This document shows positions 190 through 61,860 of a DNA stretch of 64,000 bases, piece by piece. This stretch comes from Sphaerodactylus townsendi (taxonomy: Eukaryota), in NCBI RefSeq assembly GCF_021028975.2, contig NC_059428.1:47678001-47742000 (forward strand), given 5' to 3'. A program made the position numbers and the translations under genes. How positions within the stretch are numbered: position 1 is the stretch's first letter; the number at the start of each line of letters is the position of its first letter. The notes beneath the pieces were generated by a model. That model was not told where the DNA came from. It searched no databases and saw only the letters and a program-made list of their open reading frames with translations.

Positions 190-1140
190 CCACTGCCACC
201 CCCTCTCTGCCCAAAGGAGCAGCAGGCGGCTGCCTTCTCCATGGGGCAGAGGGGTTTTGTATGCCCGGTGCTGCCGCCGCCACCGCCTTCTCCTCTGTGC
301 CCAATGTAGCAGGCGGCTACCTTCTCCATGGGGCAGTGGGGGTTTGCATGCCTGGTGCTGCCGGCTCCAGGCAGGCCGTCACCCCATCTCTGCCCAATGG
401 AGTAGGCGGCTACCTTCTCTGTGGGGCAGAGGGGGTTTGTATGCCCGGTGCTGCTGGCTTGCGCAGTGCGAGAGGCGTCAGCACCAGGCAGGCCGCCACC
501 ACCCCCTCACTGTCCTACGGAGCAGGTGGCTACCTTCTCCATGGGGCAGAGGGGGTTTGTATGCCTGGTGCTGCTGGCTCGCACAGCACGAGAGCCGGCA
601 GCACCAGGCAGGCCGCCACCCCATCTCTGCCCAATGGAGCAGGCGGCTACCTTCTTCATGGGGCAGAGGGGGTTTGTATGCCCGGTGCTGCCGGCTCGCA
701 CAGCACGAGAGCCGGCAGCACCAGGCAGGCCGCCACCCCATCTCTGCCCAATGGAGCAGGCGGCTACCTTCTCTGTGGGGCAGAGGGGGTTTGTATGCCC
801 GGTGCTGCCGGCTCGCACAGCACGAGAGCCGGCAGCACCAGGCAGGCCGCCACCCCATCTCTGCCCAATGGAGCAGGTGGCTACCTTCTCCATGGGGCAG
901 TGGGGGGTTTGTATGCCCGGTGCTGCTGGCTCGTGCAGTGTGAGAGCCGGCAGCACTAGGCAGGCTGCCGCCGCCATCTCGTCTCTGCCCAATGGAGCAG
1001 GCAGTTGCCTTCTTTGCGGGGCAAAGGGGGCTTTCATGCCTGGAGAGCTGGCAGCACCAGGCAGGCCACCGTCAACTCTCTGCCCAACGGAGCAGGCAGC
1101 TGCCTTCTCCATGGGGCAGAGGGGGTTTTCATGCCTGGTA
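190..1140. repeat. GC-rich tandem array, ~117-bp unit with an internal hairpin, inside a probable non-autonomous hAT element (PROS1 intron 1)
   Basis: The anchor ATGCC(C/T)GGTGCTG recurs at 261, 348, 441, 561, 678, 795 and 913. Full units contain the inverted repeat GGTGCTGCCGGCTC...GAGCCGGCAGCACC. Confidence 0.9.
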
Positions 1141-3292: not shown

Positions 3293-4045
3293 AGATAAGA
3301 TAACTTTAATGTCATTGTGCATTGTGCACGCACAACGAAAATACAAACAAGCATCCCCCATGCACATTTCTGCAATCCTCACACCCCATCTTCCCCAATC
3401 CCCCTTCCAACCATCCCTACACAGCCACAGCCATATCAATGCGACACCATGGAGTTCAGCATAGCCACAGCTTTAGAATAAAAGCTGTCTCTGAGCCTAG
3501 TTGTCCTTGTTTTGATGATCCTATGTTGTCTGTCAGATGGTAATATTTTAAAAAAAGAGTATGAAGGGTGAGATGGATCTTTCAGAATGTTCTGAACTTT
3601 CTTTAAGCAGCGGGAATTATAGAGTTCTTCCAAAGAGGGGAGAGGGCATCCAATAACTCTCTGGGCAGTAGTAATCACCCTATGGAGCGCCTTCCTATCT
3701 GCCACTGTGCAACTGGCAAACCATGCACAGATGCAGTATGTCAGGACACTCTCTATGGCACAGCGGTAAAAGGTCACCAGCAGTTTTTCATTTACTTGTT
3801 GTTTTCTTAAAAGTCTCAGATAATACAATCTCTGCTGGGCCTTCTTAACCACTGCGGCAGTCTGAATGCCCCAGGTCAAATCCTCAATAATCATAACACC
3901 CAGGAACTTAAAACTAGCCACCCGCTCCACTCGATCCCCATTTATAACCAAGGGCTAAATTTCTGACTTGTTCCTTCAGTAGTCTACTATCAGCTCCTTT
4001 GTCTTATTGGTATTAAGGACCAAATTATTGTCCCTGCACCAGAAC
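3293..4045 (-). mobile_element. Rex1/Babar-clade non-LTR retrotransposon, 5'-truncated
   Basis: ORF 3436-3951 (RVERVASFKFLGV...KKAQQRLYYLRLL...FYRCAIESVLTYCI..W...DPSHP...RTTRLRDSFY) is the typical Rex1 RT C-terminus. The 3' end reads AATGACATTAAAG followed by TATCT repeats. Confidence 0.85.
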
Positions 4046-4099
4046 CTCACAAAACAGACTCTCTTAAGCCATTCTTAACTGGCAGCAACTTCCCAGATT

Positions 4100-4460
4100 C
4101 TCAGTATGAGCATCTTTGTAGGACGCCACACGATTGGTGCTTATCGCTCCCTGGAATTCTAATCCCGCCTTTATAAGAACCAATGATGGGCGTGTAGCCA
4201 CCAATCCAAACCTTCCTCTCATCAGTGGCCCTTTGCTTCCCTCCTGCCTCTTCTCTTGCTGGCGCTTTTGTAACCATTGACAACCGACCTGGTTACGCGT
4301 CCCTTCGACGCTCTGTTGTTATTTAACGACCCTTCAGCCTGACCAATCAGCGGCCTCCAGCAGCATCACGTGGGCGGGAATCGGCGCAGGGATTGGCGTC
4401 ACGTGACTGATCGGTAAGGCCCGCCTTCTCTCCCCTGTAGCTTGTGGCCTCTTTAAATCT
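4100..4460 (+). promoter_or_regulatory. ARL13B: ARL13B promoter (CpG-rich; CCAAT cluster, E-box/CLEAR, GC boxes, RFX X-box)
   Basis: CCAAT/ATTGG at 4133, 4180, 4201, 4343 and 4392; X-box-like GTAACC-ATT-GACAAC at 4270-4284; TCACGTG at 4366; GGGCGG at 4372; palindrome GTCACGTGAC at 4398-4407. Confidence 0.75.
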
Positions 4461-16589: not shown

Positions 16590-17314
16590 GTAGCTTCCAA
16601 ACAGTTTGGTTCAGGGGGTCCAAAGTTATGGACCCTCAAAAGGGTAGCCCCCATCTCCTTAGCAAAGAATGGGGGATGGGGAACCCCTTTGACCCTAAAT
16701 CAAACTGCACCAAACTTGGGGGGTCCCATCAGTACAGTTTCCAGATGATACCCTGAAATTTTGGTGCTGATACATCCAAAAATGTGCCCCCTGCAGGAAC
16801 ATACCAGAAATTTGCCCAAGAATCTTTGTTCTTCATTGAGTTTTCTGTATTGCTGTCAATGGGGGTTGCAGGCTGGGGGGGGGGGGACATTTCTGAAGGC
16901 ACAGTCTCAAAACTTTCAGGGTCTCATCAGGAGACTGCCCTGATGATACCCCCCCCCCAGGTTTGGTGCAGTTTGGTTCTGGGGGGCCAAAATTATGGAC
17001 CCCCAAAACTGTAGCCCCCATCTCCTATTAGCTCCCATTGGAAACAATGGGGGATGGGGCACCTCCTTTTGGAGTCCATAACTTTGGCGCCTCTGAACCA
17101 AACTGCACCAAACGTGAGTGGTAGCATAAGGACAGTCTCCAGATGATACACTGAAATTTTGGTGCTGATATGTCTAAAAATGCACCCCTTGCAGGCACCA
17201 GTGTCCTGGTGCAAAAAGAAAATTTGGTCGTGGTGGAGTGGCCGCCCATGGGGGCGGGGGAGCATCCAACTCAGGTTTTGCCCAGGGCTACAGTTTGCCT
17301 CGTTAACGCCCCTG
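16590..17314 (-). mobile_element. Non-autonomous hAT-like element, truncated; shares internal repeats with 23824-25166
   Basis: Terminus reads CAGGGGCGTTAACGAGG on the minus strand. Internal GTTATGGACCCTCAAAA...CCCCATCTCCTATTAGCTCCCATTGGAAACAATGGGGG is repeated here and at 24840-24905. Confidence 0.65.
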
Positions 17315-23823: not shown

Positions 23824-25166
23824 CAGAGGCGTAGCTAGGGAAAATGGAGCCCGGTGCAAAATCTGAGTTTTGCGGTGGGGGGGGCATGGGCTTGAGCATA
23901 GCTGGGCCATACTTCGCCAGGTAGCTGGGCCATACTGTGCCCGGTGCACACTCTTTGTTTTCCACCCCAACCTTTTGTGGTGCCCTGCTCCCCCACACCC
24001 CAGTGGGGCTGCATAGCCCCGCCCCCACATACTGCGTAACCTGGCCCCCTGCGCGTACCTGCTGCCAGCTCCTTCTGTCCCCAGGGCCTGGGGAGGGCAG
24101 AAGCCTGCTTGCACGGTCCCCAGGAGGGTGGAAGAGAGGCATATCTAGGAAAAATGGAGCTAGGGCATAATCTGAGTTTATGATTATAAACTCCCCCACC
24201 CCATTTTCCCTAGATACAGTGGAGGGGGGAGAGAAACCAAGCCATCTGCTGATCTCACAGAGGAGCACCCAGGTCTACTGCAGAGCAGGCAGGAAGGGTC
24301 CCAGGTCTATCACTTGGGCAGGCAGCAAGGGGCCCAGGTCTACTGCTGGGCAGTCCAGTCAGTGTGCTGGCACGGGCTCTGGCGGGTCAGTGCCCTCCTT
24401 CGACTGTGGTGCCTACCTAAAAGGGAGCCTGTAGGGTCCCTAGTTTAAACACCATTGAAAGTGATGCTGTTTGAGGGTGGATTCTCCCCCCCCCCAAATA
24501 AAAACAGCATCACTTTCAATGTTGTTTAAACTGGGGACCCCACATTCTCCCTTTAAGGTGGATTTAAAAAGAGAATCTGGGGTCCCTAGTTTAAACAACA
24601 CTGAAAGTGATGCTGGCATCCCCCCCCCCCCCAGCATCACTTTCAATGTTTAAACTGTGGACCTCAGATTCTCCCTTTAAATCCATGCCGAAGGGGGTGG
24701 ATTTAAAAGGAGAATCTGGGGAAATTTTGGGGTGCCTGCTGTCAGGGGTGCAGTTGTTAAGCTAGCAGCACCAAACTTTCAGGGTATCTTTAGGAGACTC
24801 TCCTGATGATACCAGCCAGGTTTGGTACAGCGGGTCCAAAGTTATGGACCCTCAAAAGTGAAGCCCCATCTCCTATTAGCTCCCATTGGAAACAATGGGG
24901 GATGGGGCACCCTCTTTGGGAGTCCATAACTTTGGACCCCCTGAGCCAAACCTCACCTAACTTGGGTGGTATCATCAGGAGAGTCTCCCGAAAAATCCCA
25001 GAAATGTTGGTGCTGCTAGCCTAAAAACTACGCCACCTGCAGATCAAAAACTGAAAAAACACTAAAAAATACAAAAAAACCCCACAAACGAACCTGAAAT
25101 TTTTGCGACCCCCCGGCGCGCACCTGGTGCAATGCGCACCCCCTGTCCCCCTGGTAGCTCCACCTG
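23824..25166. mobile_element. Non-autonomous hAT element, 1343 bp, with internal repeats
   Basis: Ends CAGAGGCGTAGCTA...TAGCTCCACCTG; perfect 8-bp TSD AGAATAGG at 23816-23823 and 25167-25174. Confidence 0.88.
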
Positions 25167-30109: not shown

Positions 30110-30730
30110 GCAGAAGGGTGCCCCTTCACTGGCCACCCTGTCATCATCAACCAGGAGTTTCCTATGGAGATGGTGGAGAACTTTCTCCAGCTTCACAGGC
30201 ACCCTGCTGGCTTGCCCCACTTTGCAAAATCTGAATCCCAGCTTTACAAATGGGGATGTGCCTGTGGAGATGGGGAGAACCTCCTCCCAACTTCACAAGC
30301 AACTGCTGCCCTCCCTTTGCAAAGCCAGTATCCAGCTTTGCAAATAGAGAGTGTGTGTCTATGGAGATTGGGAGAATTCTCCCAATCTCCACAGGCACCC
30401 TGCTACCTCATCCTTTGGAAAGCCAGAATCCTGGCTTTTCAAATGAGAGGCTGTGTTTGTGCCTATGGAGATGGGGAGAACTCTCCTAATCTTCATAGAC
30501 ACCATGCTGGCTCCTCCTCCCACCTTTGCAAAGCCAGGGTACAGCTTTGCAAATGGTGGGAGTATTCTCCCTATCTTCACAGGTACGCTGCTGGCTCCAT
30601 CCCCCTTTGCATAGCCAGGACCCAGCTTTGCAAGTGGGGGGGGGGGGTGCCGATGGAGATTGGGAGAACTCCCTCCCTTTTCATAGGCACCCTGCTGCCA
30701 ATGCAGGTGCCCATCCCACCAGTGTAAGGA
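30110..30730. repeat. ~100-bp tandem array built from two palindromic modules
   Basis: CC(T/G)(A/G)TGGAGAT-like anchors at ~30161, 30261, 30358, 30462 and 30650. Perfect 30-bp palindrome TGGAGATTGGGAGAATTCTCCCAATCTCCA at 30362-30391; repeated CTTTGCAAAG. Confidence 0.85.
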
Positions 30731-42677: not shown

Positions 42678-44238
42678 GTATCAGAATGTTTTGTTTTATT
42701 AACCAGGGATTACAGACTGATACTTCACTTTGTCTGGGTTCTGTCACAGAGTTTATGAAAACTATTCTTCATTCCCATTCGCTTACAGTAAGTAAAGCCT
42801 GTGAGGTAATTCTGATCAAAAGCTGGCCCTAATATTGGTAAGTAGCCATAATTAAACATCCCTTTAATCTGCAAAAAGTGATAGACAATGCAATCTTAAA
42901 CAGAACTATACCTCCTAAGCTCAGTGAAGTAAATTAGAAAAAAATTAATGAATCCATTATAGTATAAAATTATTTTAGACTAGGGCACAGTTGTTACTGA
43001 GAAGACATTAGCCTTTACTTCAACAGAGTTTGCGTCAATCTAAGTGCACTTCAAATTTCTGAGTTAATTTTCAGATATTGCCATTATCAAGCATAAGTAA
43101 CAGTACAGTGGTAGCTAACCTGCTTGGCATATAGTCCACTAGTGCAGACCAATTATGGCACATGTTATTATATGGTATATTTGAACACCTTTTTCTGCCC
43201 TGAGTACCTTAATATTATTTTATATATACTCTATTCTCATTGTGCTGGGGAATGGGTTGCAGCCCTAGTAGGAAAAGTAATCTTAAGAGGTATAGTTTGC
43301 ATATTGTATGGGTATGTCTCCTTTTCAGGAGTACTATATGTCTGCCTCTTATATCAGCGGTAGCAACTGTTTTACAGGTTGGCCTGTAGCATTGTCAGAA
43401 AATACAAAAATTGGATTTATTACATTTACTGAAATTACTTTTTTTGTTTTATAGATGCTTCATTTCCATCTATTTGCGCATTTGATATAAATAAACGAAG
43501 TACCAGTGAAACAAATCAACATTAATAGCAGACACCAGTTTCTTTGGAGCGTTATGGCTTCTACTCCTGTCCCCTTGCATAATTTTGTAATTCCCTAAAT
43601 CAAATGATTTAGGGTATTTCCCAACTTTAGTGTCTTTTGGTTCCTTGGCATAATATGCAGATGTGTTTTTTTTAAAAGTCACCTCCTAAATCAGTGCACG
43701 TGATTAAAGACTTAGTCTTCCTAGCATCAGACAACTTAAGTAATCTACACAATGATTTGTTTATGGGACCATCCAGTAATCTATATGTGTACATAAGGAT
43801 GAAATAAGGGTATTGACTATATTTGTACAGTTGAACTTTTAAATACCTGCTTCTTAAAACCAATTAAAATGTAAAGCTGTGTACAGCCATGCTTTCTTAA
43901 GAATATGATATAACTAATATTTGGGGCCAAAGTTGGGCATCTAGTGCATAGTAGGCTATGCTTAGGGTAAAGTTTCTATGTTTCCCACCATCATTATCTA
44001 TAATGCTTAGCAGCAATAATTAGTAATGCTGAGATTACATTAGGTTGGTGTAGAATAATTAGCCATGTAAATCTATAATAATGATCTGTAAATGCAACCT
44101 ATTGAATGTTTTAGGTGTGTAATATTATTTCAGTAAATCTTGTAGAGTATTTTCTATGGCTTTTTGTTGACATTTCTGCTGCTTTACTCTCTTGCACAAG
44201 TGTCTGTATTAAAATGTCCTCTTGCTGTGCTTTGTTAG

Positions 44239-44487
44239 AACGAAAAGAAAGTTGAAAAAGAAAAGAGGCAGAGGGAAGAGTGAGGTTGAGCCTTAGAAGC
44301 TTAAAACAGTCGGAACAAATGGAGACTGAGGGAGCACAGAGCGATTAAACGATGGAAAGCATTGTAGACTAGCAGTAGAAAGTTATAAAGCTGCCACCCT
44401 AACCCAACTTGGCTGCAACATAGAAGAAGATAGAGCCAGCCCAGCCTCAGAGATGTGATTCAGGATAGCTGCATGAGTCCAGAATAG
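44239..44487 (+). CDS. ARL13B: ARL13B coding exon 7, disrupted as given (stop at 44281 and several frameshifts)
   Basis: Acceptor TTGTTAG| and donor AG|GTGAGT are intact. NEKKVEKEK, EQMETEG and VESYKAA match human NEGKLEREK, EQIETQG and VENYKEA but lie in three different frames. Confidence 0.8.
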
Positions 44488-44859
44488 GTGAGTTTTACAG
44501 ATGTAAATTCAGGCTTGATATACTAGCCATATTCTGCTTTTGTTTGCCACAAACTTCTCCCTCAGTTGCTCTGAAATTCACGTAAGGCTTGAGAAAAGGC
44601 AGGGTGTTGTTTTGTCTCTTGCCATTTCTTAGCTTCTACAAACTACCACATAAATGAGAGCTCAGGAATGGGAATGTGAAATTCTGACTTGTTTATCTAA
44701 CAACAAAGTTCAAGATATATTTTTAAAAAAACCTAAGGCTACAGTGTTATGCACACTTACTAATAAGCCCCACTGAACTTACTTCTGCATAAACATATAT
44801 GTATATAGGGTAGATAAGAGATTTTGTTCCTCTGGACTTGCTCTGCATGAAAAAAAAAG

Positions 44860-45440
44860 ATAATCTTTATGTTCATGTGGAGAACTAGAATTAGCATAGT
44901 AAATACAACATCAGATCACAACCAGATCAGCTTTTCACAAGTCGGTTGTAAGGATAAAATGGAAAGAGAGCCACATATACATTGTGGGCACTGGGGAGAC
45001 AAGAAGGATAATAAAGGGAGGCTGCTTGGCAATATTTGGGATGTCTATAATGTGAAATTAGAATGGTGTTGTAAAGTGAGTTAAGACCACGGGGGAGGAT
45101 ACTTATGGGCTTAGTCTTGCTGTTTGAAAAGCAGGTTAATGGGATGCACAAAACTGTCATCTTCCAGCTGCATCTTGTTCGCCAGCTCTGGCCTTTATAT
45201 AATTCAACTGACCTGTGGAATTGCCTAATCCATGCTTTTTTTGTAGCTGCATATTTGGGCTACTGTAGTATGGTCTATGTTGGCTGCTGTTAAATACAAT
45301 CCAGTAATTGCAACTGAATCAGAATGCAACAGCCTGTTTGTTAGGTAATACATCTGCTTATTCTAGAGTAGCATCATTGGATGCCAGTTTATCTACAGAT
45401 TCAATTCATGATGCTGGCTATAAGTGTTAAAGTTCTTTGT
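44860..45440 (+). mobile_element. Decayed L2 LINE fragment
   Basis: Remnants of the L2 RT end (LHLVRQL.P, LIHAF...LGYCSMVYVG, QLNQNATACLL). Confidence 0.55.
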
Positions 45441-45944
45441 AATTGTAATTTAAAGTCTTTGTAGTAGTGTGTGTGATTTTAGGCTGAGGAGGCTGGTGGG
45501 AGAGAAAAGATGGGGTGGGGATGGGAAAGCAATATGATTGTTTGATTCTAGAGTGTATGTGTGGGAGGACTGTGCTAAACTGGCAGGAGGTGAAAGGACT
45601 GGGAGTATCAGAGAGAGTTAAAGCTGAGTGTGAGCATGGCAGTGTGTGTTAGGGTTTCTGTGTGAGAAGTCATTGGCCCATTCCGTATGGACCCTGCATG
45701 GCTTGGGTGCACCTTTCTTGTGGTGCACCCCAGAGACTGTTGCGGTGCCCTGCGAACAGCCCCAGTGCCCCAGCGGAATCCCATCCTAATTTCCCATGGA
45801 CCACATAGGCCATCCACTGTGCCTTATAAGCTCATACACACTACCAGAAGGCAGTAAAGGAGAGGGTTTTTTTAATTTATAATCCTGGTGGCAGCTACTA
45901 TATGAGGAATAATTGCGTTGAAGTAGCTAATAACCCTCCTTGAA

Positions 45945-48900
45945 ATAAATGTGGTACAGCATCGCTGTGTGTGGTAAAATTATTTTATTAACAAATTGGT
46001 TCAAGGTGAAAACAGCGTAAGGCACAACGCAGGGGTCTGATCTTATGATCTGTGAGCTGGAACATACAGTGCATACGATGCCTAAATTCTCTTACCACAT
46101 GCGATGAAAAATTATCACCGCGAACAGCTGTGAGATTCCCAGATAGGCGGTTGCCCTTTATGAGGAGCTCTTTGCTGCCAGGTCATAAATACATAAGCCC
46201 GTCTGGGCAGGAGTTACCTGGCTTGCTACAACCCAAACCTCATAATGGGGGTTCACATAAGCACTTGCCGCTGTCCCTGGCGATCCAGTCCCCAATATAA
46301 AACGTAGCCTACAACAAGTAGGCATGCGGCTAACAAAATGTCCAAAGTATAGGGAGAATTGGGTGGACAAGTGTTTCTAGCAAAATGGGGAGGTTTAGGC
46401 CAGGACCAAAGCTAAAATGTGCCTGTTCCCTCTCGGTGACGTCCAGAGCCGCAGTGTACAGCTCCTAGGCTTTGTCCCTACCAGAAGCCAGAAACCTCAT
46501 GAGCTGTTGGGGCTTCGCTGAGGAGGCAATAGAGGAAGGCGGCAACCACCTAAGGAGAGCTGTCCCTTCCCGCTATGTATAATGGCGGCAGCGTTAGTGC
46601 TTTGCTGAACAGGAGAAATGCTCGCCTCAGCAGAAGCCAAATGGCGAAATACAACATGCTTTGTGTGTGGTAAAATTATTTTTATTAACAAAATTGGTTC
46701 AAGGTGAAAACAAAGCGTAAAGAGCATGGCATAGAGTCTGATCTTGCAGTCTGTGAGCTGGGCAGCAGATAACATCCCCCAGTCACCTAAAATTTTCACT
46801 CAACTTAGCCTGCCGTTGAAGAATTATCTGCATAGAGCAGCTGAGATTCCAGATGGGGATTGCCACTTCCTGAACTCTTTGCTGCCGAATTCTGCGCCAA
46901 GCCATAGAAATACGTCTGGGCAGGGTTGCCCTTGGCTTGCTACAACCCAAACCTCATAATGAGGTTCATAAAGCCGGAGCATTTTGCCGGCATACTAAGC
47001 AAAGATCAGTCCCCATCGCCAAACCGCCAAAAGGCTGAAACAGCTCATGGCATACCTACACGGGCAATCCACACAAATGCATTTCGTGCCTGTGCAGCCA
47101 ACAGTCCCATACTGGGAAGACAAGTGTACCCGATGCGTCCCTATAAAGGGGCCAACGTGTGCGAAATTCCCAATTAGACTCGTGGCCCCCATTGCCTGAA
47201 CAAAGCAGAAACCCGTAGCGACAGGTGTTGATTCTGGCCAAGTCCACACCTGTTGAGACACTTTGCCGGCAGCGTCTCTCAGCAGCTTGGACCAAAAGAT
47301 CCTAAGGTCCCAGGCATCTTGAAAATCGTTAAAATCTTCCCAGCATCTTGTGAAGTAGTGTCGGCTTGAAGCAGGTAAGTCATTTTAAAGCGAGATGAAT
47401 GATGAAGAACATCTGGAGCTCCCAAGCGATCCACCTTGTTCAAACATGGAGGCAGAAGGGCTTCCCAAGCGCATACCTCTGACACGAACCAGGCTGCCTG
47501 TTTCCATAGAGCCAGTTCCATCCCAGCCGGAGGATGCCCGTGATAGCGGTGCCATTCGCCATGGGTGCAGAGCGAGAGACAGAAAAGTCCTGCGAGTCGT
47601 GAAGGACCTGATGTAGGTCTTGTATCTGCGGAGGAGCGCCACCTGCCCAATGACTGGATGGCTTGGCAGGCCCCTGGCCAGCCTAAAGGCAGCGGCCCGG
47701 TGGATGCTGCCCCAGTCACCAGATGAATGAGGCCAAAAGGACCTGTGATTCACAGTACTAGGGCCACTAATCGCTTCAAGACTCCACAGTTCTGGAAGAA
47801 GTCAGGGGTTACTTATTTACGTGAACAATGCGGAATTATCATTGGAATCTGGATAAGGCATCAGCAATGTTGTTGTCCACTCCCGGCACATGCCTAGCTA
47901 GAAAAAGAGATGTTGTTAAGCAAACAGGGTAGCCACAAACCTCGCACCAAGCATGACCGCTGGAAGCGGAGAGTTGTTTGTTGATTACCGGACCCTGCTG
48001 TCACCTTGCTGAAAGAACATGGATTCACCTAAACCCGTGCTCACCAAAGAACCGGCCACTAGATGGGAAAGGGCCGAAAGTTCGAAATCTCTCAAGATTC
48101 CAGTAGCTTCCCATTCCACTGGCCGTAACAGGCACGCAGCGACCCTCGAAAGACCCAAAACCCAAACACCAGAGGAATCAGACTGACTGAACACATTTGA
48201 AGCGTGCATCAAGGGGATTGCATAAAGTGTGATTAAAATGCTTCTCCACCCCAGATAGCCAAATGCAATGCCTTTGGTCAGCGGATATAATGATGGGGCC
48301 TTAACCCCTTCGCCAAGCCTGAACAGCCGTGCGAAATGAAGCCCGGTGGCCACCACCCGATAGACTGAACCGCCGGACCTGCATCTCCTTAAGGGTGCAT
48401 TGCTGCGCTGTAAAAAATCCTGCAATAGAGCAAGCATCTTGTCCTTGTCTGAGGGCAAGCTGGAAGAACCCCTCCACAGGTGTCCAGTGTGACACCTAAA
48501 ATACCCATGAAGGCGGGGCGCCTGCTCGTTTGCCAAAGTGTCACCCAGCTCTGCGCCCGGCCATGTAGAGCCCTCAGCCTGTCCCGCATTCAGAGGTGTG
48601 CGGCCTATGATTAAAACTTCGTCCAAGTAGTGCGTTAGCATGTGAGGGAGAGGAGGCCCGGCCTTTGGCGGCCCATTGATGTGAATGTGCCGAAGCGTCG
48701 AAAGCCGCACAAGCCACAGAGCAGCCCTTCGGCATGGATTTATCCACGAACCGACTAGCCCTGAGAGCACCCCAAAACCCAGCAAACAAAAGTCATTGGG
48801 ATGAATGGGCAGCAGAGCGGACTGAATGTCACACTTAGCCATCAGGGCCAGGGCCACATGAGCGGATGAGGAGCTACGAAGCAGTCTAAAAGCGTACTTG

Positions 48901-51900
48901 ACAGAGCTGACCTCCGAATTGATACGCCGTTGCAGAAAGGCCCCTGGGGTGGAAGATTTGTGTATCCTTACAAAGCTTTATCGTCTTCTTGGAACTACTC
49001 TAGAGGACACTTTCCGGAGATTGGGCAGGGAGGGATGAGAAGGGCCAGCTACCCTGCCTGCTTGAATTTCTTTGATACAATTTTTTGTTCCAGCCACCCT
49101 GGAGCAAGTCCTAGCGGCAGTTCCCGATGGTGGCGCCTTGGAGCCTGCGTAAGGAATTCTAAAACCTTGGTGAATCCATCTAATAGAAATGGCTGCCACC
49201 TCCTGGGTAAGCTTGGAGTAGTGGGGCAGAGACCTTCACGGGGCTGACCAGGCGGGTGGGAGTCAGTATCCCTCTGCCTCAGCAGAAGTTTGCTTGAGAT
49301 TCCCGACCCTCCGTCCCTTTCCTGTTGGGGCTGGTGATGGGCGGAGCACCTGAGACTGGGCAGGATTTCCCTTTGGGCAATTGATCGTGGGTGGGAACCA
49401 GCACAGCTCACAGGCATGTCTCAAACTTGCATTTGCTCTGTAGCGCGCTACAGTAAACTCCCAGCACATGGCCTGTGCCTTGAAAAAATGAGGCGTTCTT
49501 GTTGGAGGAAGACTGCTGGGACGGCATTGGGCTGCACAAATCACGCCCTATTATGAATAGATGCCAGCGTGTTTTATGCGTGTTGGAGAGCACTTTCACA
49601 GAAACTCACTCATCATGCAGCCTATTATGCGGCGGCCTCTCCAGCAATGGCTCTGGCCCTCATTCACGTTGATTATTGTAATTGGGCCAGCAACTGCCCA
49701 AGCTCTAAAGCGGATAAGCTGTCGGAAATGAGGCATAGCATATTCACGAGCGGATAGCCAGTTGATGAAGGACCGGTCCAACCCTAGGGGCTGTGAGGCT
49801 CTTGGCGGCAGATCCCCCCAGAAGCCGCCTGGAGCAGTCGAGACCACGAAGTCAAAAATATCTCGGCCATAGTAAATCCATCCAATGCTGCGTTCCTTTG
49901 ACCTTTTTTTGGGAGAGTGCCACCGGGTCCTGGTCACAAACCTTCGCCGTGGACCAGAACCGAATCATGATTCTGTCCCATCTCTGGCAGGGACCCAAGC
50001 TAAAGTCACGCCGTTTTGCCAAGGAAGGAGGCAACTTGAGGGAATACCCTCCCGGAAACCCAATAAAACCCCATCCGGGCTTCAGAGTCCTTCATCAGTG
50101 ACAACTCGCACTGGGCGAGGGTGTCCGCGATGTTTCCGTGAACCCTGTGATGTTTGGTCTTCGCGCTTCGGGACCTGCTGGTGAAGCAGTCCGGTCTTCT
50201 TCTTCCTCACCGTCCAGTGCGGGAATTTTAGAGTTCCCTTGTTCCTGGTGGCTGTCAACCTGGTCAGGAATAGGAAAAACCTCCCCTTCCCTACAGAATC
50301 CTGCACAGCGCATGTGAGCTAAAGTGGTGGAGAGAGCCGGAATCCGACTGACTGGTCACGCGAACATCGAACTACCACTAAGCTGCTTTTGGACAGCTGC
50401 ATCGCCGATTTGGCCATGGATTCGCAGTAAGCGTTCCCCATGTGAACTAAAGGGTTGCCGCTATTAACCTTGGGGGGGGCAGCTTCCGCAATGGCTGTTT
50501 TTGGCCAGCTGCCATACCGCTGGTGGAGGTGGCAATAAAGGCTTGAGCCTGGCTAACAGCACGCTTAGAGCTCTGCTCTCTTACACTGCTGCTGGGTCTG
50601 GGGGCCACCGGCGTCCTTGGTGGTCGCTTGCTGGTGGTGGTGCCATTGGCTGTAACCCTTGGGGCCCCGCTACTGCGTGTTCTATGGATGGGGCTGCCAG
50701 GCTCTGCCTGTGCAGCCGCCGCTGTCACAGAGACCCTGGCCTTTTTGGCTGGGGCACCTTTGGATGCCTCCGTGGGTTTTTCCCTATTGGCCCTGGTGGC
50801 TCTGCTTGCCCTCTGCTCCTTTGCAGGGGCCTCCACCCCTTTAGCTGCTGTAGGAGCCATACTGCCAGCTGTATGCTGAAAGAAAACCCAGTGCTTAAGG
50901 AGAACAGTGGGCCGGACTGGGAAGGGATGGTGGTGTATTAAGTGCCAGCAACCGAGAAGAGTACACCCTAGTAACTAGCCTTGTAAATGCGGCAGGGAAG
51001 GATAGGAAAAAAGGAGCAGCAGTATACGTTATGCAATGCTTCTGGCGATGAATTCCCCATCCCAGCAAACTTTATAAAACGACAGTAAACAGCAACAACA
51101 GAAAGTGCCTGAAACATGAACCGAGACAAAAAGGGGGTGGGGTGGGGAATTTGGCGCCGGAAGTTGAGGAAAACCGTAGTAGCTCCCTCATGCCACCCCC
51201 CCCCCCTTTCCGCTAAGGAATAATGGCTCGCGGCTGCAGCAGGTGGCTAAAAAAATGGGTCAGCTGATCCCCCCTGGGCGGCAAGAATATAAGGCCAACA
51301 CAGCCAGGTTTTCCCGCCATCCGCTGGCGGAAGAGGGCCGCCCGTTCCGCCTATGGCCGGGCGGGAAGTAGCCGGAATAGCCGCCCGGCCTGCCCCAATT
51401 CCGGAAGAAGGCAGCGGTGCAGGGCGCCAGCGGACTTGGGTTGCGGGCTGGCGGAGGCGCCGAGGCCGATGCCGCCGGTTTGAAGCCCGCCCTTAAAAGC
51501 CGTGAGGCCGGGCGGAAGGCGCCCGCTACCCAGAAGAAGCGCCATAGGTGCAGCTGGGTTGGCGCAAGAAGGCTTCGCCAGCCATCCTCAGGACCCCACG
51601 GAATTCGAAACAGCCCCGCTGGAGTAGCGGGAGCATGGACGGTAGCGGCATGCGGCCAGTCGCCGGACCCCCCCCCCCCCCCCCCCACCGGAAGGCGGGC
51701 CGCGGGTGCTGCGAAGGCCGGGCGAGCCGAATTCGGCGGCCATGCCGCCCGACTTACTACCATATATACAAAAGTAGGACGCGATGGCGTGAGACCGGAT
51801 TTTAATGCAGGCGCCCGCCACAGCCGGGCTTCCGCTTTACCCGAAGAAGCGCCGCGGGGCCAGCGGGGTAGCGAAGATAGCGCCCGCCGGGCCGCCCGGG

Positions 51901-52700
51901 GAGGTCAGGCGTGTGCAAGTATGCTGGTAGCGAGGCTTCGCTGTAAGAAGCGCAGCCGCTAGAACTCAACCAGAAAAAAGGCAGGCGCTGGTCTTGGCGC
52001 GGACCGGCGCCAAGGCATGAGGCCAGCGCCGCCGGGCCCCCCCACCTCACCGGAGGAAGGCCATGGCTCACCGGAGTTCCGCGCTTAGGGCGGTATTGTA
52101 GCCGATGGCCAGCGCCGTCCGGGCCTCACCCGAGTGGGCTGCGGGGCCGGGCGGCGGAGCGGCGTATAAGCGAAAGAACGCGGATCCCCACCGCGCAAGG
52201 CCCGGCGTAACGGCAAGGGAAAGGAAATGCGCCGTGGTTGGTGAAGAGAAGCCTTTGCCAGGACCGCTTCCAATCCCTGACTGACCTCGGGACCAGGCCT
52301 TGGCCAGCGCACAGAGCTGGCGGCAGGAACGAGGCAAGGAGGGGAGGGAATAGTAAAAGGCAAAGCCGCCATTACTTACCTCACAGCAACGTGTTACCGC
52401 TTCCCGTGGGTCAACGTGTTTGCTCTGGCAAAATAGGAGGTTTAGAGCAGGACAATGACCCTAAAATAGAAGCTGCCTGGCCCTTCCTCACTCCAGTGCG
52501 ACGTCCAGGCTTAAGGCCGCCGTCACCTGGCTCCCTGGAGGGCTTTGCCCTACAACGCTGAAGTCCAGAAACCTGCAGCGAAAGCTGTTGGGAGCTCGCT
52601 GAGGCAGCAATGAGAGGCGGCAGCCACCTAGGAGGCTGTCCCTTCCCCGCCAGCAATGGCGGCCGCGTTAATTCGCAGCCGCTCTTTAAGGGAGTAAATA
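45945..52700 (-). mobile_element. Ngaro-type (DIRS order) tyrosine-recombinase retrotransposon with split direct repeats, frameshifted
   Basis: Minus-strand order: A1 (~52370-52700); gag-like region with Cys/His knuckle (CWEF...HACELC, ~49400-49470); RT (KCDIQSA.LPIHPNDFCLLG, HYLD); RNase H (FLARHVPGVDNNIADALSR, ~47850-47905); YR C-terminus (PHS...GAAST...IQSLGRWRSS.YKTYIR, ~47610-47740); SGNH-like remnant (RGMR, PDVL); B1 (~46640-47060); A2 (~46330-46620); B2 (~45945-46320). Confidence 0.88.
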
Positions 52701-53466
52701 TTAGTTGACACTTGTATATTTATTTATAAAGGGAAAAGAGTGAACATCACTGTTGGTGGCCACGGATAGAAGGGTCATCGCACCCTTCATGTCCTAAAAC
52801 TCAGGTATCTAAAAAAAATCTCTACCCATATATTCCCATGGGCCAGATGTAGTCTTTAAGGGTCCCCTTTAAGGGTTTCCCCTGCTGAAAGTGACCCGCC
52901 TAGCACTGACAAGGATCCATGCTTTCTCAGTGATTCTTCTATTGTATGGAATGGGTTTCTCAAGAAAGGCAGCACTATTCTTGGAAACCTTTAGGAGGTA
53001 CTATAAAGTTTATTTTACTCACAAAAGCTTTTGAGTGTAAACTGCAGACATCTTATTACATTCGAGGAGAATTATGAATGTATTGTTTTCAGTTGTGAAT
53101 TGTAAGCCATCTTGAACCATGGAGGAAAGTGGGATACAAATGTTTCATTAACAAAAAATCTCATAGTCAATATTGTGTAGTTGACACTTTACTCATCAGG
53201 CTGATGCTCAGTTGCCAAGAGAAACCAGCATTTGTACTAGCTAGCTTTTTCATTTCTTCCTTTCAAGTAGTATGAAGAACAGATTTGAATCTGAAATCAT
53301 TTACTCTCCTCCCTACTCTGAAGTAACCCATTATATTAATTTGTAGCCTCCTACTGCCCTGTCTCTATCTTTGAAGGAAGAAGTCTTACCCAGCAGTCTT
53401 CAGTGGAAGCATTTGCAGATATGAAAATAAAGTATTACAAGCAGAGTTTATTTATAAGCTTGCTAA

Positions 53467-53622
<156 letters not shown>

Positions 53623-53790
53623 TAACACATTAGTGAACTATAATTATTGGTGCATCAGTTTGTGAATGCTGTGTGAAGTGATTTTATCTACTTATTTAAC
53701 TTAAGTTAACAGCAGTTGATATAGCTTCTCAGGTTTCCTCTGATAAAATGTAGATCTAGGATGAAGGTGAAGGAACATGAAAACCAAGTA

Positions 53791-54927
53791 CCGTATATAC
53801 TCGCGTATAAGTCGAGTTTTCAGCCCTTTTTTAAGGCTGAAAAATGCTCCCTTGACTTAAATGCGTGAGTCAGGGTGAGGTCAGCCCTTCCGCCTTTCCC
53901 ATCCTGCTCACCTTTGCGTGTGCAGAAGTCCCCCTCCCAGGAATCGCCAGTATTTGCCTAGGAACATCCTGGGCACAACCATTCCAGTCACGTGGGGAGC
54001 GCCAAATTGTCCCCACACACAGACTGAAGTATTCCAGCCTTCCAGCCTAAACTTTCATTGGCATCAGGCTGCCTCAAACTTCCTGGTTTGTCTTTTTGAC
54101 CTTCCTCTCACTCCCAACTCTGCTCATGTTGTGCCTTGGCCCCGCCTACACAGTTGCTCTGTTGGCCACTAGCTAGAGAAATAGTGGCGACTCAAGTCCC
54201 AGGCTGGTAAGTTATGGGAAATGTTTTTGTGAGGGTGAGGGGTGTATTGTGAGAGTTACATGGATACACTAGTGTGGGAAATGTTTGCTTAAAGTGAGCT
54301 GGCTTAGTTTTCCTTCATTTTCTTCTCCCTCCTTTCCACTCAACCGCATTCATGTGCAGCCTTACTCCATAGTAGCCCCGGTGAGCTGCACAAGGCGTAT
54401 GCAGTAAGGCTGCCCATGGAAGCCCCGTTGAGATACAGTTCGTCCATCCCGTTACGGTGTTGCTGCTAATAAGAAGGGTGGGAAGCTTTAAAACTATTTG
54501 TTTGCAGCACTGGAAGGTTAAAAACTGTTGGAGCTGTTTGCTAGAGAGGCTGAGCAGGAAGGGAGGGGGTGGGAAAGGGTAAACAAGGGGAGTTTGCTTA
54601 GTCTTAGAGAAAAAGAGCAAGAAGGGCTTCAGATATACAGCCCATGAGCTGACTTTAGTTTTCCTTCATTTTCTTCTCCCTCCTTATTGTTCTTGTAGTT
54701 TACTGTTTTTCTTTGAAATAAATATAAATATTCAAAAACATTTAACATATTGAAGCCCCAATTAATGTAATTTTATTGGTATCTATTTTTTATTTTTGAA
54801 ATTTACCAGTTGCTGCTGCATTTCCCACCCTCGACTTATACACGAGTCAATAAGTTTTCCCAGTTTTTGTAGTAAAATTAGGTGCCTCGACTTATACTCA
54901 GGTTGACTTATCCACAAGTATATACGG
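53791..54927. mobile_element. Tc1/mariner (pogo/Tigger-like) non-autonomous element, same TIR family as 39562
   Basis: TA|CCGTATATACTCGCGTATAAG...CAAGTATATACGG|TA; shared sub-terminal GGTGCCTCG(A/G)CTTATA. Confidence 0.85.
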
Positions 54928-59795: not shown

Positions 59796-61860
59796 CAAGG
59801 AGTCATGCAGCAGCTTTAAAACAAAGCCTGCAGTGTGGAAAAGTGAAACCCAGATTCAGTATCATTTTCTAAAATGATGAAAACAATGCTATTCTTAAAA
59901 ATTGCTGGGAAAGACACTAAGAGTGCCTTGGAATTGCAGCAGTAAGAATAGTGTTGATGAATTCAACTATCTTGATTCACCAGCTCATCTTCAAGAGTTT
60001 ATGTGGACTAAGAAAATGTTTATTAATAGAACTATTGATAAGTTCCTGAATTTTTTCTGTGCCGGAACAGAAAAACTGTAGCTCTGAAGACCTTTCCAAG
60101 ACCAACATGTGCACCTACAATGACTGTTTCTGGTTATGCTTAGCAACCAGTATTTCTACATTTAATATTTCAGAGATTTATTTGGAAGGCTTGTGCAAAT
60201 GAAAAGTATGAACTATACATTTCAACTATTTTTATATTTTTTATAGGAGGTTTGGAAATTTGGGTTAACAGAACTATTTTGAAATATTGAGGTTCATACT
60301 TAATTTTCACAAGCAAAACATACTTCTGAATGTCATTTTTTTTCTTTGCAACTGCAGTACAGTTTGCCTATGCTTCACAAGTTGCCCTTGCTGTTGCTGT
60401 GTTGATATTGTCTATCGTCATGATCAGCCAGAGGAACTGCATGCTCGAATGAGTGCTGCAGTTGTTTTTACTCAAGCTGAAAAGCTTATTCCAGAAGCTG
60501 GTGCTACATACAGTGAACCCATGCCAGTCACTGGGATCACACCAATCATATGTTCCGAAGATGAGCAGGAAGACTGAATCCCTACCCCTTGTTCTAACTT
60601 CTGGATGGCTGATGATTAGAATAATTCCAAACAATCTGGGATGCCGTGCACTTAGTCGCAGTTTCTGAAGTGGGCTTTTCCATGGGGGTGGGGGGCGGGG
60701 ACAGACAACAAGCATTGCACGCATTAATAGGATGTGCATTTCCTCTTGTCAAATTGGGGTGACTTGTCTCTTGATCTCCTGATAAATGAGACTATATGTA
60801 AAATTATGATGGTTTTGCTCGTGGAATATGTTGTAACCTCAAAATAATTTTCTGTCCAAAGACCTAAAATGGCAAGCGACTAAAATTGGAAGCAATTAGC
60901 CCTTCCTCGATTAGGTTATATCTGTTTCCTGTAATGCTGACCCAACTTTTTTGCAGCTCATTATACTTTCTTGCTCACATTCAGAGCTCTACTGTGCGCG
61001 TATCTGTGTAGGTCAGCTTTGTATAAGCGTGTGGGCACATATGTGGTCTTGGCACTAAAGTGATTGAGAATGCTTTTGGTTATGCTGGAGCTGAAATGTG
61101 TACATCAAAGCACTCTAAAAATTTAGATGGTGCCCTGTCCAGTGTGGCCGTCTTTAACAAACTGAGAATGGCATAGAAGTACAGAAATATTTATTTGTTC
61201 TGTATGCATGGATCCTATTTGAAATTAACTCCTGCATCATAAATAAAACTGGCACAATTGAAATATTAAGATCTGTTATTAAGTTCTGTGACTTCACACT
61301 TTTTGTGTACAAACAGTAATATTAAAATTTATCCAAAATATTATATTTAATAGAACATTGTGGTCAAATAGTTTTGAATTCAAAGCTGGCTATTTCCCCT
61401 TTTTTTCCGAGCATGTATGTCGAAAACTGATGTAAACGTTAATTAGTACCACAATCATTTTAAAAGTACTGTGAATTTTAGTTTAGGAAAAAATAAGCCA
61501 AAATGACCCATAAGATGGTTCAAAGACTAGTCCAAGGCTTTCTGTTTTGGGAAACAATCTTTTAATGGAGCTTGATAGTTTCAGCCCTTTCACTGAAAGA
61601 TATTTTTCTGCCAGTTCTTTCCCCTATTAACATGCATTACAATTCAAAGGATTTTCTGGGAACACAAAAGGAAAAAAACCCAGCCTTTTAAATATACAAC
61701 ATGTGTGCTCCATGTATTTGTTTATGACTGTTAAATATATGTTTGCTTTGGGCCCAAACTAATTTTTTGTGTATTAATGTAATGAACTGTTTTATTGTTT
61801 TTCCTTATGACTGTATTATTTGTTGAATGTCAAATCTAAACGTTTTATGCCTGCAGTAAA

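What the first reader, a model, noticed from the sequence alone, without database searches (positions are those of the whole stretch)
45945..52700. Near-complete Ngaro tyrosine-recombinase retrotransposon with A1-ORFs-B1-A2-B2 split direct repeats
Seen: A copies at ~52370-52700 and ~46330-46620 (shared GGCGGCA.CCACCTA.G..GCTGTCCCTTCCC...AATGGCGGC.GCGTTA). B copies at ~46640-47060 and ~45945-46320 (shared TGTGTGTGGTAAAATTATTTT..ATTAACAAA.TTGGTTCAAGGTGAAAACA). Gag knuckle, RT, RNase H and YR motifs follow in order. Established: this layout defines Ngaro elements, which integrate via a circular intermediate and are absent from mammals and birds. It is the most unusual self-contained system in the window, inserted antisense in an essential ciliary gene, and its retained CpG-rich 5' region (51150-52690) suggests recent activity and an internal promoter.
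Basis: partly seen in the sequence, partly recalled or inferred. Interest (0 to 1): 0.7.

Follow-up and report, generated by a model that had tools for sequence, protein, structure and literature searches.

The report
Young Ngaro retrotransposon blurred by read errors
This is a jumping gene of a known kind (Ngaro) sitting backwards in an intron of the cilium gene ARL13B of a lizard, at a site that is empty in other samples of the species; it likely jumped in recently, and its ruined look is likely sequencing noise in the assembly rather than age.

Summary
Confirmed, and ordinary. A 6,773-bp Ngaro-type tyrosine-recombinase (YR) retrotransposon lies at 45913-52685, minus strand, in intron 7 of ARL13B of a gecko-like lizard. 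There is no methyltransferase, and the family RT lies far from this genome's DIRS1-like elements. No labelled Ngaro or PAT reference was in my tree. Short-read contigs of two same-species samples and one other species join the flanks without the element, sharing 2 bp (AA), so the insertion is likely recent and polymorphic; I saw no contig across a filled junction. The apparent decay (A and B pairs about 73% alike, every ORF broken) is likely raw long-read error. Indels outnumber substitutions (271 vs 242), and the noise also garbles ARL13B exon 7 where short-read contigs disagree. About 740 bp of YR is missing, so this copy is likely non-autonomous. Solo A-B units abound (27 of 30 best matches), as described in Cafeteria. 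The scan noted this family, solo units and read noise before on other DNA.

The parts
45913..52685 (-). Whole Ngaro-type element, 6,773 bp; a 2-bp AA is shared with the target (52686-52687 / 45913-45914)
   Evidence: Empty-site joint 45912 to 52686 with 2 shared letters in X1, X2, X6; ends match the family ends
52406..52687 (-). Repeat A1
52375..52383 (-). Strong splice-donor-like site just past A1 (GT at 52380); splicing not shown
   Evidence: Same site at +217 to +280 in 8 of 12 siblings
50861..52405 (-). GC- and CpG-rich 5' non-coding region; tandemly repetitive in siblings; possible promoter or 5' intron (inferred)
49298..50860 (-). gag-like ORF1, broken in the assembly after about 110 clean codons; C-terminal CCCH plus CCHC-like motifs seen by eye in siblings, traces in the window
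   Evidence: tblastn E 1e-87 to L013 ORF1, DNA match; no Pfam hit
47780..49468 (-). RT/RNase H ORF2, many apparent frameshifts; no methyltransferase tail
   Evidence: tblastn E 1e-43 to L023 ORF2, which hits RVT_1 at E 8.6e-11; that ORF ends 18 aa after RNase H
47590..47790 (-). Remnant of YR ORF3; about 740 bp missing at 47757-47748
   Evidence: the joined form occurs once in the assembly, here
47071..47580 (-). ORF4, SGNH/GDSL hydrolase, broken in the assembly
   Evidence: tblastn E 6e-13 to L023 ORF4; 63 of 77 aligned relatives hit Lipase_GDSL_2; model pLDDT 96.4 matches SGNH esterases
46602..47030 (-). Repeat B1, ending at the internal B1/A2 junction
46303..46603 (-). Repeat A2
45913..46302 (-). 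Repeat B2
44239..44487 (+). ARL13B exon 7, garbled in the assembly (upstream exon of the host intron)
   Evidence: 37.5% identity with stops, against 82-100% for the other 9 exons; short-read contigs disagree here
53501..53617 (+). ARL13B exon 8, intact (downstream exon of the host intron)

Best explanation
This is a Ngaro-type tyrosine-recombinase retrotransposon in intron 7 of lizard ARL13B, at a site that is empty in other samples of the species; it likely inserted recently, and its scrambled sequence is likely uncorrected long-read error in the assembly. Shown: layout, ends, ORF order, host gene, empty site, the 2-bp AA shared by both ends, the target and the internal B1/A2 junction, and the ~740-bp gap in YR. 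Inferred from the family model: RNA starts in A1 and ends in B2; reverse transcription uses the internal B1-A2 joint to rebuild both ends as a B|AA|A circle junction; YR recombines that junction with a genomic AA, mostly followed by A or T, leaving AA at each end and no longer duplication. Because this copy lacks most of YR, it was likely integrated by a sibling's recombinase or lost the piece afterwards, and it likely cannot move by itself.
For: Empty allele: joint 45912 to 52686 in contigs of X2 and X1 (organism A, samples S2 and S1) and X6 (organism C), 3 of 4 runs laid. Flank contigs leave the window at 52686 in X1, X2, X3, 3 of 4 runs. Noise: window vs sibling L013 gives 242 substitutions and 271 indel events in 3,493 nt. 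Four control pairs give 15/6, 94/6, 295/31 (about 1,615 nt each) and 867/181 (5,351 nt). 27 solo units have a median indel/substitution ratio of 0.19. The two bins with almost no indels (51050-50651: 2 and 0) overlap the stretch that short-read contigs match with 0-1 differences. The unique left flank 44482-45675 differs from X1 and X2 contigs by 40-42 letters and 34 gaps, and X6 from another species sides with them at many listed places; the right flank 52686-53838 differs by 0-1. ARL13B exon 7 is the only garbled one of 10. Against solo unit L040, A1 and A2 share 0 substitutions and B1 and B2 share 1 in 578 columns; the rest are private to one repeat. Class: no methyltransferase tail, SGNH ORF4, RT 24-27% identical to six inverted-repeat DIRS1-like RTs of this genome and split from them at 100/100. 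Target: A or T follows the end in 27 of 29 right flanks, p 7e-5 at 60% A+T.
Against: No contig across a filled junction appears among the listed pieces (1,042 pieces not shown), so the filled allele rests on the assembly alone. X5 showed no joint and X4 no cover. No raw reads were seen, so the noise is inferred. One-base deletions are only weakly enriched in homopolymers (44 of 69 vs 0.53 expected in the 5' part, not enriched in the other four parts), so the platform cannot be named. CpG transitions are somewhat above background against L013 and L025 (0.052 vs 0.031; 0.070 vs 0.040), so part of the divergence from those siblings is real. The tree holds no labelled Ngaro or PAT sequence. Why the noise stops at the 5' end but runs 1.9 kb into the 3' flank is unexplained.
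Confidence: 0.85

Rival explanations
1. The copy is an old, truly decayed Ngaro fossil.
For: Best sibling match only 77-80%; repeats about 73% alike; all ORFs broken; slight CpG-transition excess.
Against: The site is empty in same-species samples. The indel/substitution ratio is 1.1 against a median of 0.19 for solo units. The damage is patchy, hits the unique flank and a host exon, and short-read contigs contradict it there. The element body keeps CpG o/e 0.53-0.54 against 0.21-0.23 in flanks.
Confidence: 0.04
2. The element is real, but it was placed here by a mis-assembly or chimeric read, and no animal carries it in ARL13B.
For: Only the empty allele is seen in the contigs listed; the stretch has raw-read quality.
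Against: Both ends fall exactly on the family termini and removal restores the empty site to the base with the family's AA overlap. A random chimera would not be expected to do that (inference).
Confidence: 0.07
3. The element is a PAT-like YR retrotransposon that lost its methyltransferase, not a Ngaro.
For: PAT-like elements share split direct repeats, and one nematode PAT lineage lost the methyltransferase (PMC4157794, passages). No labelled reference was in my tree.
Against: The SGNH ORF after YR is reported for Ngaro only (PMC9210276, PMC7192593, passages). PAT-like RTs are reported as close to DIRS-like RTs, whereas this RT is 24-27% identical to the local DIRS1-like ones and 51-55% to amphibian relatives, Xenopus included.
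Confidence: 0.04

Closest known systems
[quoted passage not shown]
   Same: A1-ORFs-B1-A2-B2; four ORFs gag, RT/RH, YR, SGNH hydrolase; no methyltransferase; frequent loss of 5' or 3' repeats among copies.
   Different: Host is a lizard (that paper describes the hydrolase for amphibian Ngaros). A is about 265 bp and B about 450 bp here, against 236 and 152 bp. This copy lacks most of YR. No direct sequence comparison with those families was possible.
Cafeteria burkhardae Ngaro elements with solo AB repeats (PMC8547959; passages)
   Same: Same layout; isolated AB repeats scattered in the genome, read there as recombination products.
   Different: Protist host. The reciprocal form, ending at a single B, is also common here (6 of 16 loci).
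VIPER and its SIRE derivative; PAT-like elements (PMC6681497, PMC4157794; passages)
   Same: Split direct repeats; SIRE equals A2-B2, and whether it is mobile or a remnant is called open.
   Different: VIPER is confined to kinetoplastids; PAT-like elements carry a methyltransferase; no hydrolase is reported for either.
DIRS1-like elements of the same genome
   Same: RT/RNase H plus YR, no integrase.
   Different: Inverted terminal repeats with an internal complementary region, LAP2alpha-type ORF1, and a 132-146-aa tail after RNase H in 4 of the 6 used; RT only 24-27% identical.
ZfL2-1 LINE ORF1p esterase (PDB 4c1b)
   Same: A retrotransposon-borne SGNH esterase; Foldseek E 1.3e-6 to the ORF4 model.
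   Different: Non-LTR element; domain inside ORF1p; 18% identity, no closer than bacterial GDSL esterases.

Membership tests
Ngaro-like (order DIRS) | Split direct repeats A1...B1-A2-B2, internal repeats downstream of YR | tested here: met
   complete B1-A2-B2 also in 8 of 16 sibling loci
Ngaro-like (order DIRS) | A1=A2 and B1=B2 (near-identical in young copies) | tested here: inconclusive
   About 73% in the window, but differences are private to each repeat; B pairs 98.9-99.8% in four clean siblings
Ngaro-like (order DIRS) | gag, RT/RNase H and YR on one strand in that order; no DDE integrase | tested here: met
   YR mostly deleted in this copy, whole in L016, L022, L023 (Phage_int_SAM or weak Phage_integrase hits)
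Ngaro-like (order DIRS) | No methyltransferase after RNase H | tested here: met
   L023 ORF2 ends 18 aa after RNase H; 20 relatives 16-40 aa; DIRS1-like controls 132-146 aa in 4 of 6, the other 2 broken early
Ngaro-like (order DIRS) | SGNH hydrolase ORF after YR (vertebrate subgroup) | tested here: met
   S19, G52, N82, D171, H174 kept in 90% or more of 77 rows. L023 ORF4 itself has no Pfam hit; the evidence comes from relatives and the fold
Ngaro-like (order DIRS) | RT groups with labelled Ngaro references | tested here: inconclusive
   Groups with squamate, amphibian and unnamed relatives, apart from DIRS1-like (100/100); no labelled Ngaro or PAT sequence was available; the window's own RT was too broken to include
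Ngaro-like (order DIRS) | No true target-site duplication; short overlap equal to the circle junction | tested here: met
   2-bp AA at the empty site, at the B1/A2 junction and at the ends of solo units
Ngaro-like (order DIRS) | Circular DNA intermediate integrated by YR | not testable with these tools
   Model only (PMC7192593, passages)
DIRS1-like | Inverted terminal repeats plus internal complementary region | tested here: not met
   None in the element; present in 9 of 10 control loci
PAT-like | Methyltransferase domain | tested here: not met
PAT-like | Split direct repeats | tested here: met

The most novel reading that the evidence does not exclude
The family throws off a 773-bp A-B minicircle that is itself mobile. 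Loss of A2-B from a full element (6 of 16 loci end at a single B) frees a circle that carries the intact B|AA|A junction, and the family recombinase inserts it at new AA sites. Many of the solo A-B units (27 of 30 best matches; about ten times more search candidates for the A-B unit than for the RT-YR body) would then be direct insertions, not remnants. That would answer the question left open for SIRE/VIPER.
Probability: 0.12. Interest if true: 0.6.

Novelty: new member of a known kind. Interest (0 to 1): 0.22.

Why it matters
For this locus, little: Ngaro elements with this layout are described, and so are solo AB repeats. Three points have some use. (1) Young, polymorphic insertions in this assembly can look like ancient fossils because they lie in unpolished sequence, which would distort repeat-age landscapes and here falsely breaks ARL13B exon 7. 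(2) The hydrolase-bearing Ngaro subgroup, described for amphibians in the papers I read, is present and recently active in a lizard; its enzyme keeps the catalytic residues and has no proven function. (3) A segregating insertion with a known empty allele, plus many solo and single-B forms, gives material for testing how split-repeat elements integrate and shed their repeats.

Tried and rejected
Pfam on 13 window frames: nothing over cut-off. I first took the 52873-53031 frame and the 60401-60574 frame for host exons; searches found nothing and the ARL13B map shows they are not coding exons. A PDB sequence search with ORF4 found nothing useful; the Atlas look-up gave no result. Pfam Dam (PF05869) found 0 matches in the genome although DIRS1-like tails exist, so it is no test for the methyltransferase. 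No RNA holder was listed, so expression was not examined. Searching for the filled junction in four runs showed none among listed pieces; contigs show presence, not absence. Homopolymer bias of the indels was weak. No tandem repeat was called in the window's 5' region, though siblings have one. CpG richness as a dating tool was rejected. Literature: Ngaro+SGNH+hydrolase gave only the Xenopus paper; retrotransposon+SGNH+esterase+tyrosine recombinase gave 0; two further searches listed no paper on lizard Ngaro families by title. [quoted passage not shown]

Full report
OBSERVATION. A1 (52670-52407) matches A2 (46596-46360) at 72.5% and B1 (46974-46650) matches B2 (46262-45955) at 73.8%, all direct, far above 100 shuffles each; no inverted termini or LTR pair appear. 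The window's own frames give no Pfam hit over cut-off (13 tested), so I used relatives in the same 1.81-Gb genome. The RT-to-ORF4 part has 62 matching pieces among 40 scored of 131 candidates, none above 84% and the long ones 67-80%. I fetched 16 loci. L023 has four open frames: 511, 608, 311 and 197 aa. The second hits RVT_1 (E 8.6e-11) and the third phage-integrase SAM-like domains. These frames map in order onto 50860-47071 of the window. About 740 bp of YR present in siblings are replaced by 10 bp at 47757-47748; that joined form occurs once in the assembly.

FOURTH ORF. ORF4 has 1,495 relatives among 50%-cluster representatives. In an alignment of 77 rows (L023 ORF4 plus 76 of the 150 listed, mostly the shorter ones), S19, G52, N82, D171 and H174 are kept in 90% or more, and 63 rows hit Lipase_GDSL_2. 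The model (pLDDT 96.4) matches SGNH esterases, including the ZfL2-1 retrotransposon esterase. An SGNH ORF after YR, of unproven function, is described for amphibian Ngaro elements (PMC9210276, parts 1-3 of 5 read; PMC7192593, passages).

CLASS. Split direct repeats are shared by Ngaro, PAT-like and VIPER elements (PMC6681497, PMC4157794, passages), so layout is not enough. ORF2 ends 18 aa after RNase H, with no methyltransferase. I fetched 10 LAP2alpha-marked loci as controls; 9 have inverted ends with an internal complementary piece. Six with long RT frames went into a tree with 3 family RTs and 20 of the 120 listed homologues. They are 24-27% identical to the family RT and split off at 100/100. 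The family sits beside a leopard-gecko protein within a squamate group (98/96). No labelled Ngaro or PAT sequence was available, so the phylogenetic test is indirect; the structural features all point to Ngaro.

HOST. An exon at 37165-37365 hits ARL13B. Ten coding exons map on the plus strand from 6443 to 59792, and the element lies antisense between exon 7 and exon 8. That ARL13B is a ciliary, Joubert-syndrome gene is recalled, not from a call. Best hits for both the host gene and the RT are geckos.

ENDS AND AGE. Contigs from 3 of 4 runs laid (X1 and X2, two samples of organism A; X6, organism C) join 45912 to 52686, skipping 6,773 bp with 2 letters fitting either side. A second lay showed the flank contig leaving the window at 52686 in X1, X2 and X3, and no listed contig across a filled junction; 1,042 pieces were not shown. 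The shared AA also lies at the internal B1/A2 junction of clean siblings and at the ends of solo units, followed by A or T in 27 of 29 right flanks. This fits recombinase exchange over a short overlap, as proposed for DIRS elements (PMC7192593, passages); the circle itself is a model. An empty site in same-species samples makes the insertion likely recent and polymorphic.

THE DECAY IS LIKELY NOISE. Against its siblings the window copy shows 7-11 indel events per 100 nt. In a global alignment with L013 it has 242 substitutions and 271 indels in 3,493 nt, while four control pairs give 15/6, 94/6, 295/31 and 867/181, and 27 solo units a median ratio of 0.19. The damage is patchy: bins at 51050-50651 have 2 and 0 indels, where short-read contigs match with 0-1 differences. 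It extends into unique DNA: 44482-45675 differs from X1 and X2 contigs by 40-42 letters and 34 gaps, against 0-1 in the right flank, and exon 7 of ARL13B is the only garbled exon of 10. Against the nearest solo unit, L040, the two A copies share 0 substitutions and the two B copies 1 in 578 columns, as expected if the true repeats are nearly identical and the differences are independent errors. Against this reading: no raw reads were seen, homopolymer bias is weak, CpG transitions are slightly raised against L013 and L025, and the YR gap could be real or an error. The CpG-rich 5' region (0.88) is matched by 4 of 4 siblings (0.79-0.82), so it is a family trait.

FAMILY PRODUCTS. Of the 30 best matches to a clean A2-B2, 27 are solo units with no B1 or coding body in 1.5 kb upstream; the A-B query had 1,307 candidates against 131 for the body query (lower bounds, different queries). 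Of 16 fetched loci, 8 carry B1-A2-B2 and 6 end at a single B. Both forms follow from recombination between like repeats; solo AB repeats are described in Cafeteria (PMC8547959, passages), and their mobility is called open for SIRE (PMC6681497, passages). A mobile A-B minicircle is not excluded but has no direct support.

EARLIER NOTES. The scan had noted a solo unit in another genome, and in this genome a single-B copy, raw-read noise in a DIRS1 pair and a possible spliced gag-hydrolase message. I had reached the noise and solo readings before looking. The last note led me, which found a conserved donor past A1, acceptor-like sequence before ORF4 and ORF4 in the YR frame, but no strong donor in gag.

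VERDICT. A real, likely young and non-autonomous copy of a hydrolase-bearing Ngaro family, seen through assembly noise. New member of a known kind; interest 0.22.

Noticed in passing
window 44049-45675, including ARL13B exon 7 (44239-44487): Unique sequence with dense assembly errors; the exon looks frameshifted while short-read contigs of two species read otherwise.
   Followed up: yes
L016, L018, L020, L022, L023, L024, L027, L028, YR/ORF4 boundary: ORF4 lies in the YR frame in 10 of 12 siblings printed, behind a single stop codon in 9. In L023 it has no Met before the catalytic serine, and a pyrimidine tract with two AG acceptors precedes it. It needs read-through or splicing.
   Followed up: partly
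window 52380 and siblings at +217 to +280: Conserved strong splice donor just past A1 and outside the A1/A2 match, like a retroviral major donor (comparison recalled); present in 8 of 12 siblings.
   Followed up: partly
L031-L049, L051-L058: 27 solo A-B units of about 773 bp with family ends and unrelated flanks; L044 and L048 share flanks and are one event duplicated.
   Followed up: partly
L013, L016, L018, L024, L026, L027: Copies that end at one B with flank directly behind it, the reciprocal of the solo unit; assembly collapse not excluded.
   Followed up: partly
L014, L015, L019, parts of L017 and L018: Other family copies show the same indel-rich noise (about 3-9 events per 100 nt in pairs that include them), so the artefact recurs in this assembly.
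   Followed up: partly
L021:344-675 and 4003-4333: A 5'-truncated copy flanked by a 332-bp, 99.7% identical direct repeat, which is not a family feature.
   Followed up: no
G000, genome-wide: 150 of 150 scored LAP2alpha matches among 1,032 candidates; 9 of 10 fetched are DIRS1-like with 95-98% identical inverted ends.
   Followed up: partly
window 197-1139, 16600-17200, 24400-25050, 30160-30700: A 93/117-bp GC-rich tandem array, palindromic SINE- or MITE-like repeats and a 104-bp array.
   Followed up: no
P0241, P0242, P0245, P0252, P0255: Long proteins (1,900-3,100 aa) with 4-6 stretches like ORF4 among 1,495 representatives at E up to 0.001; identity unknown.
   Followed up: no
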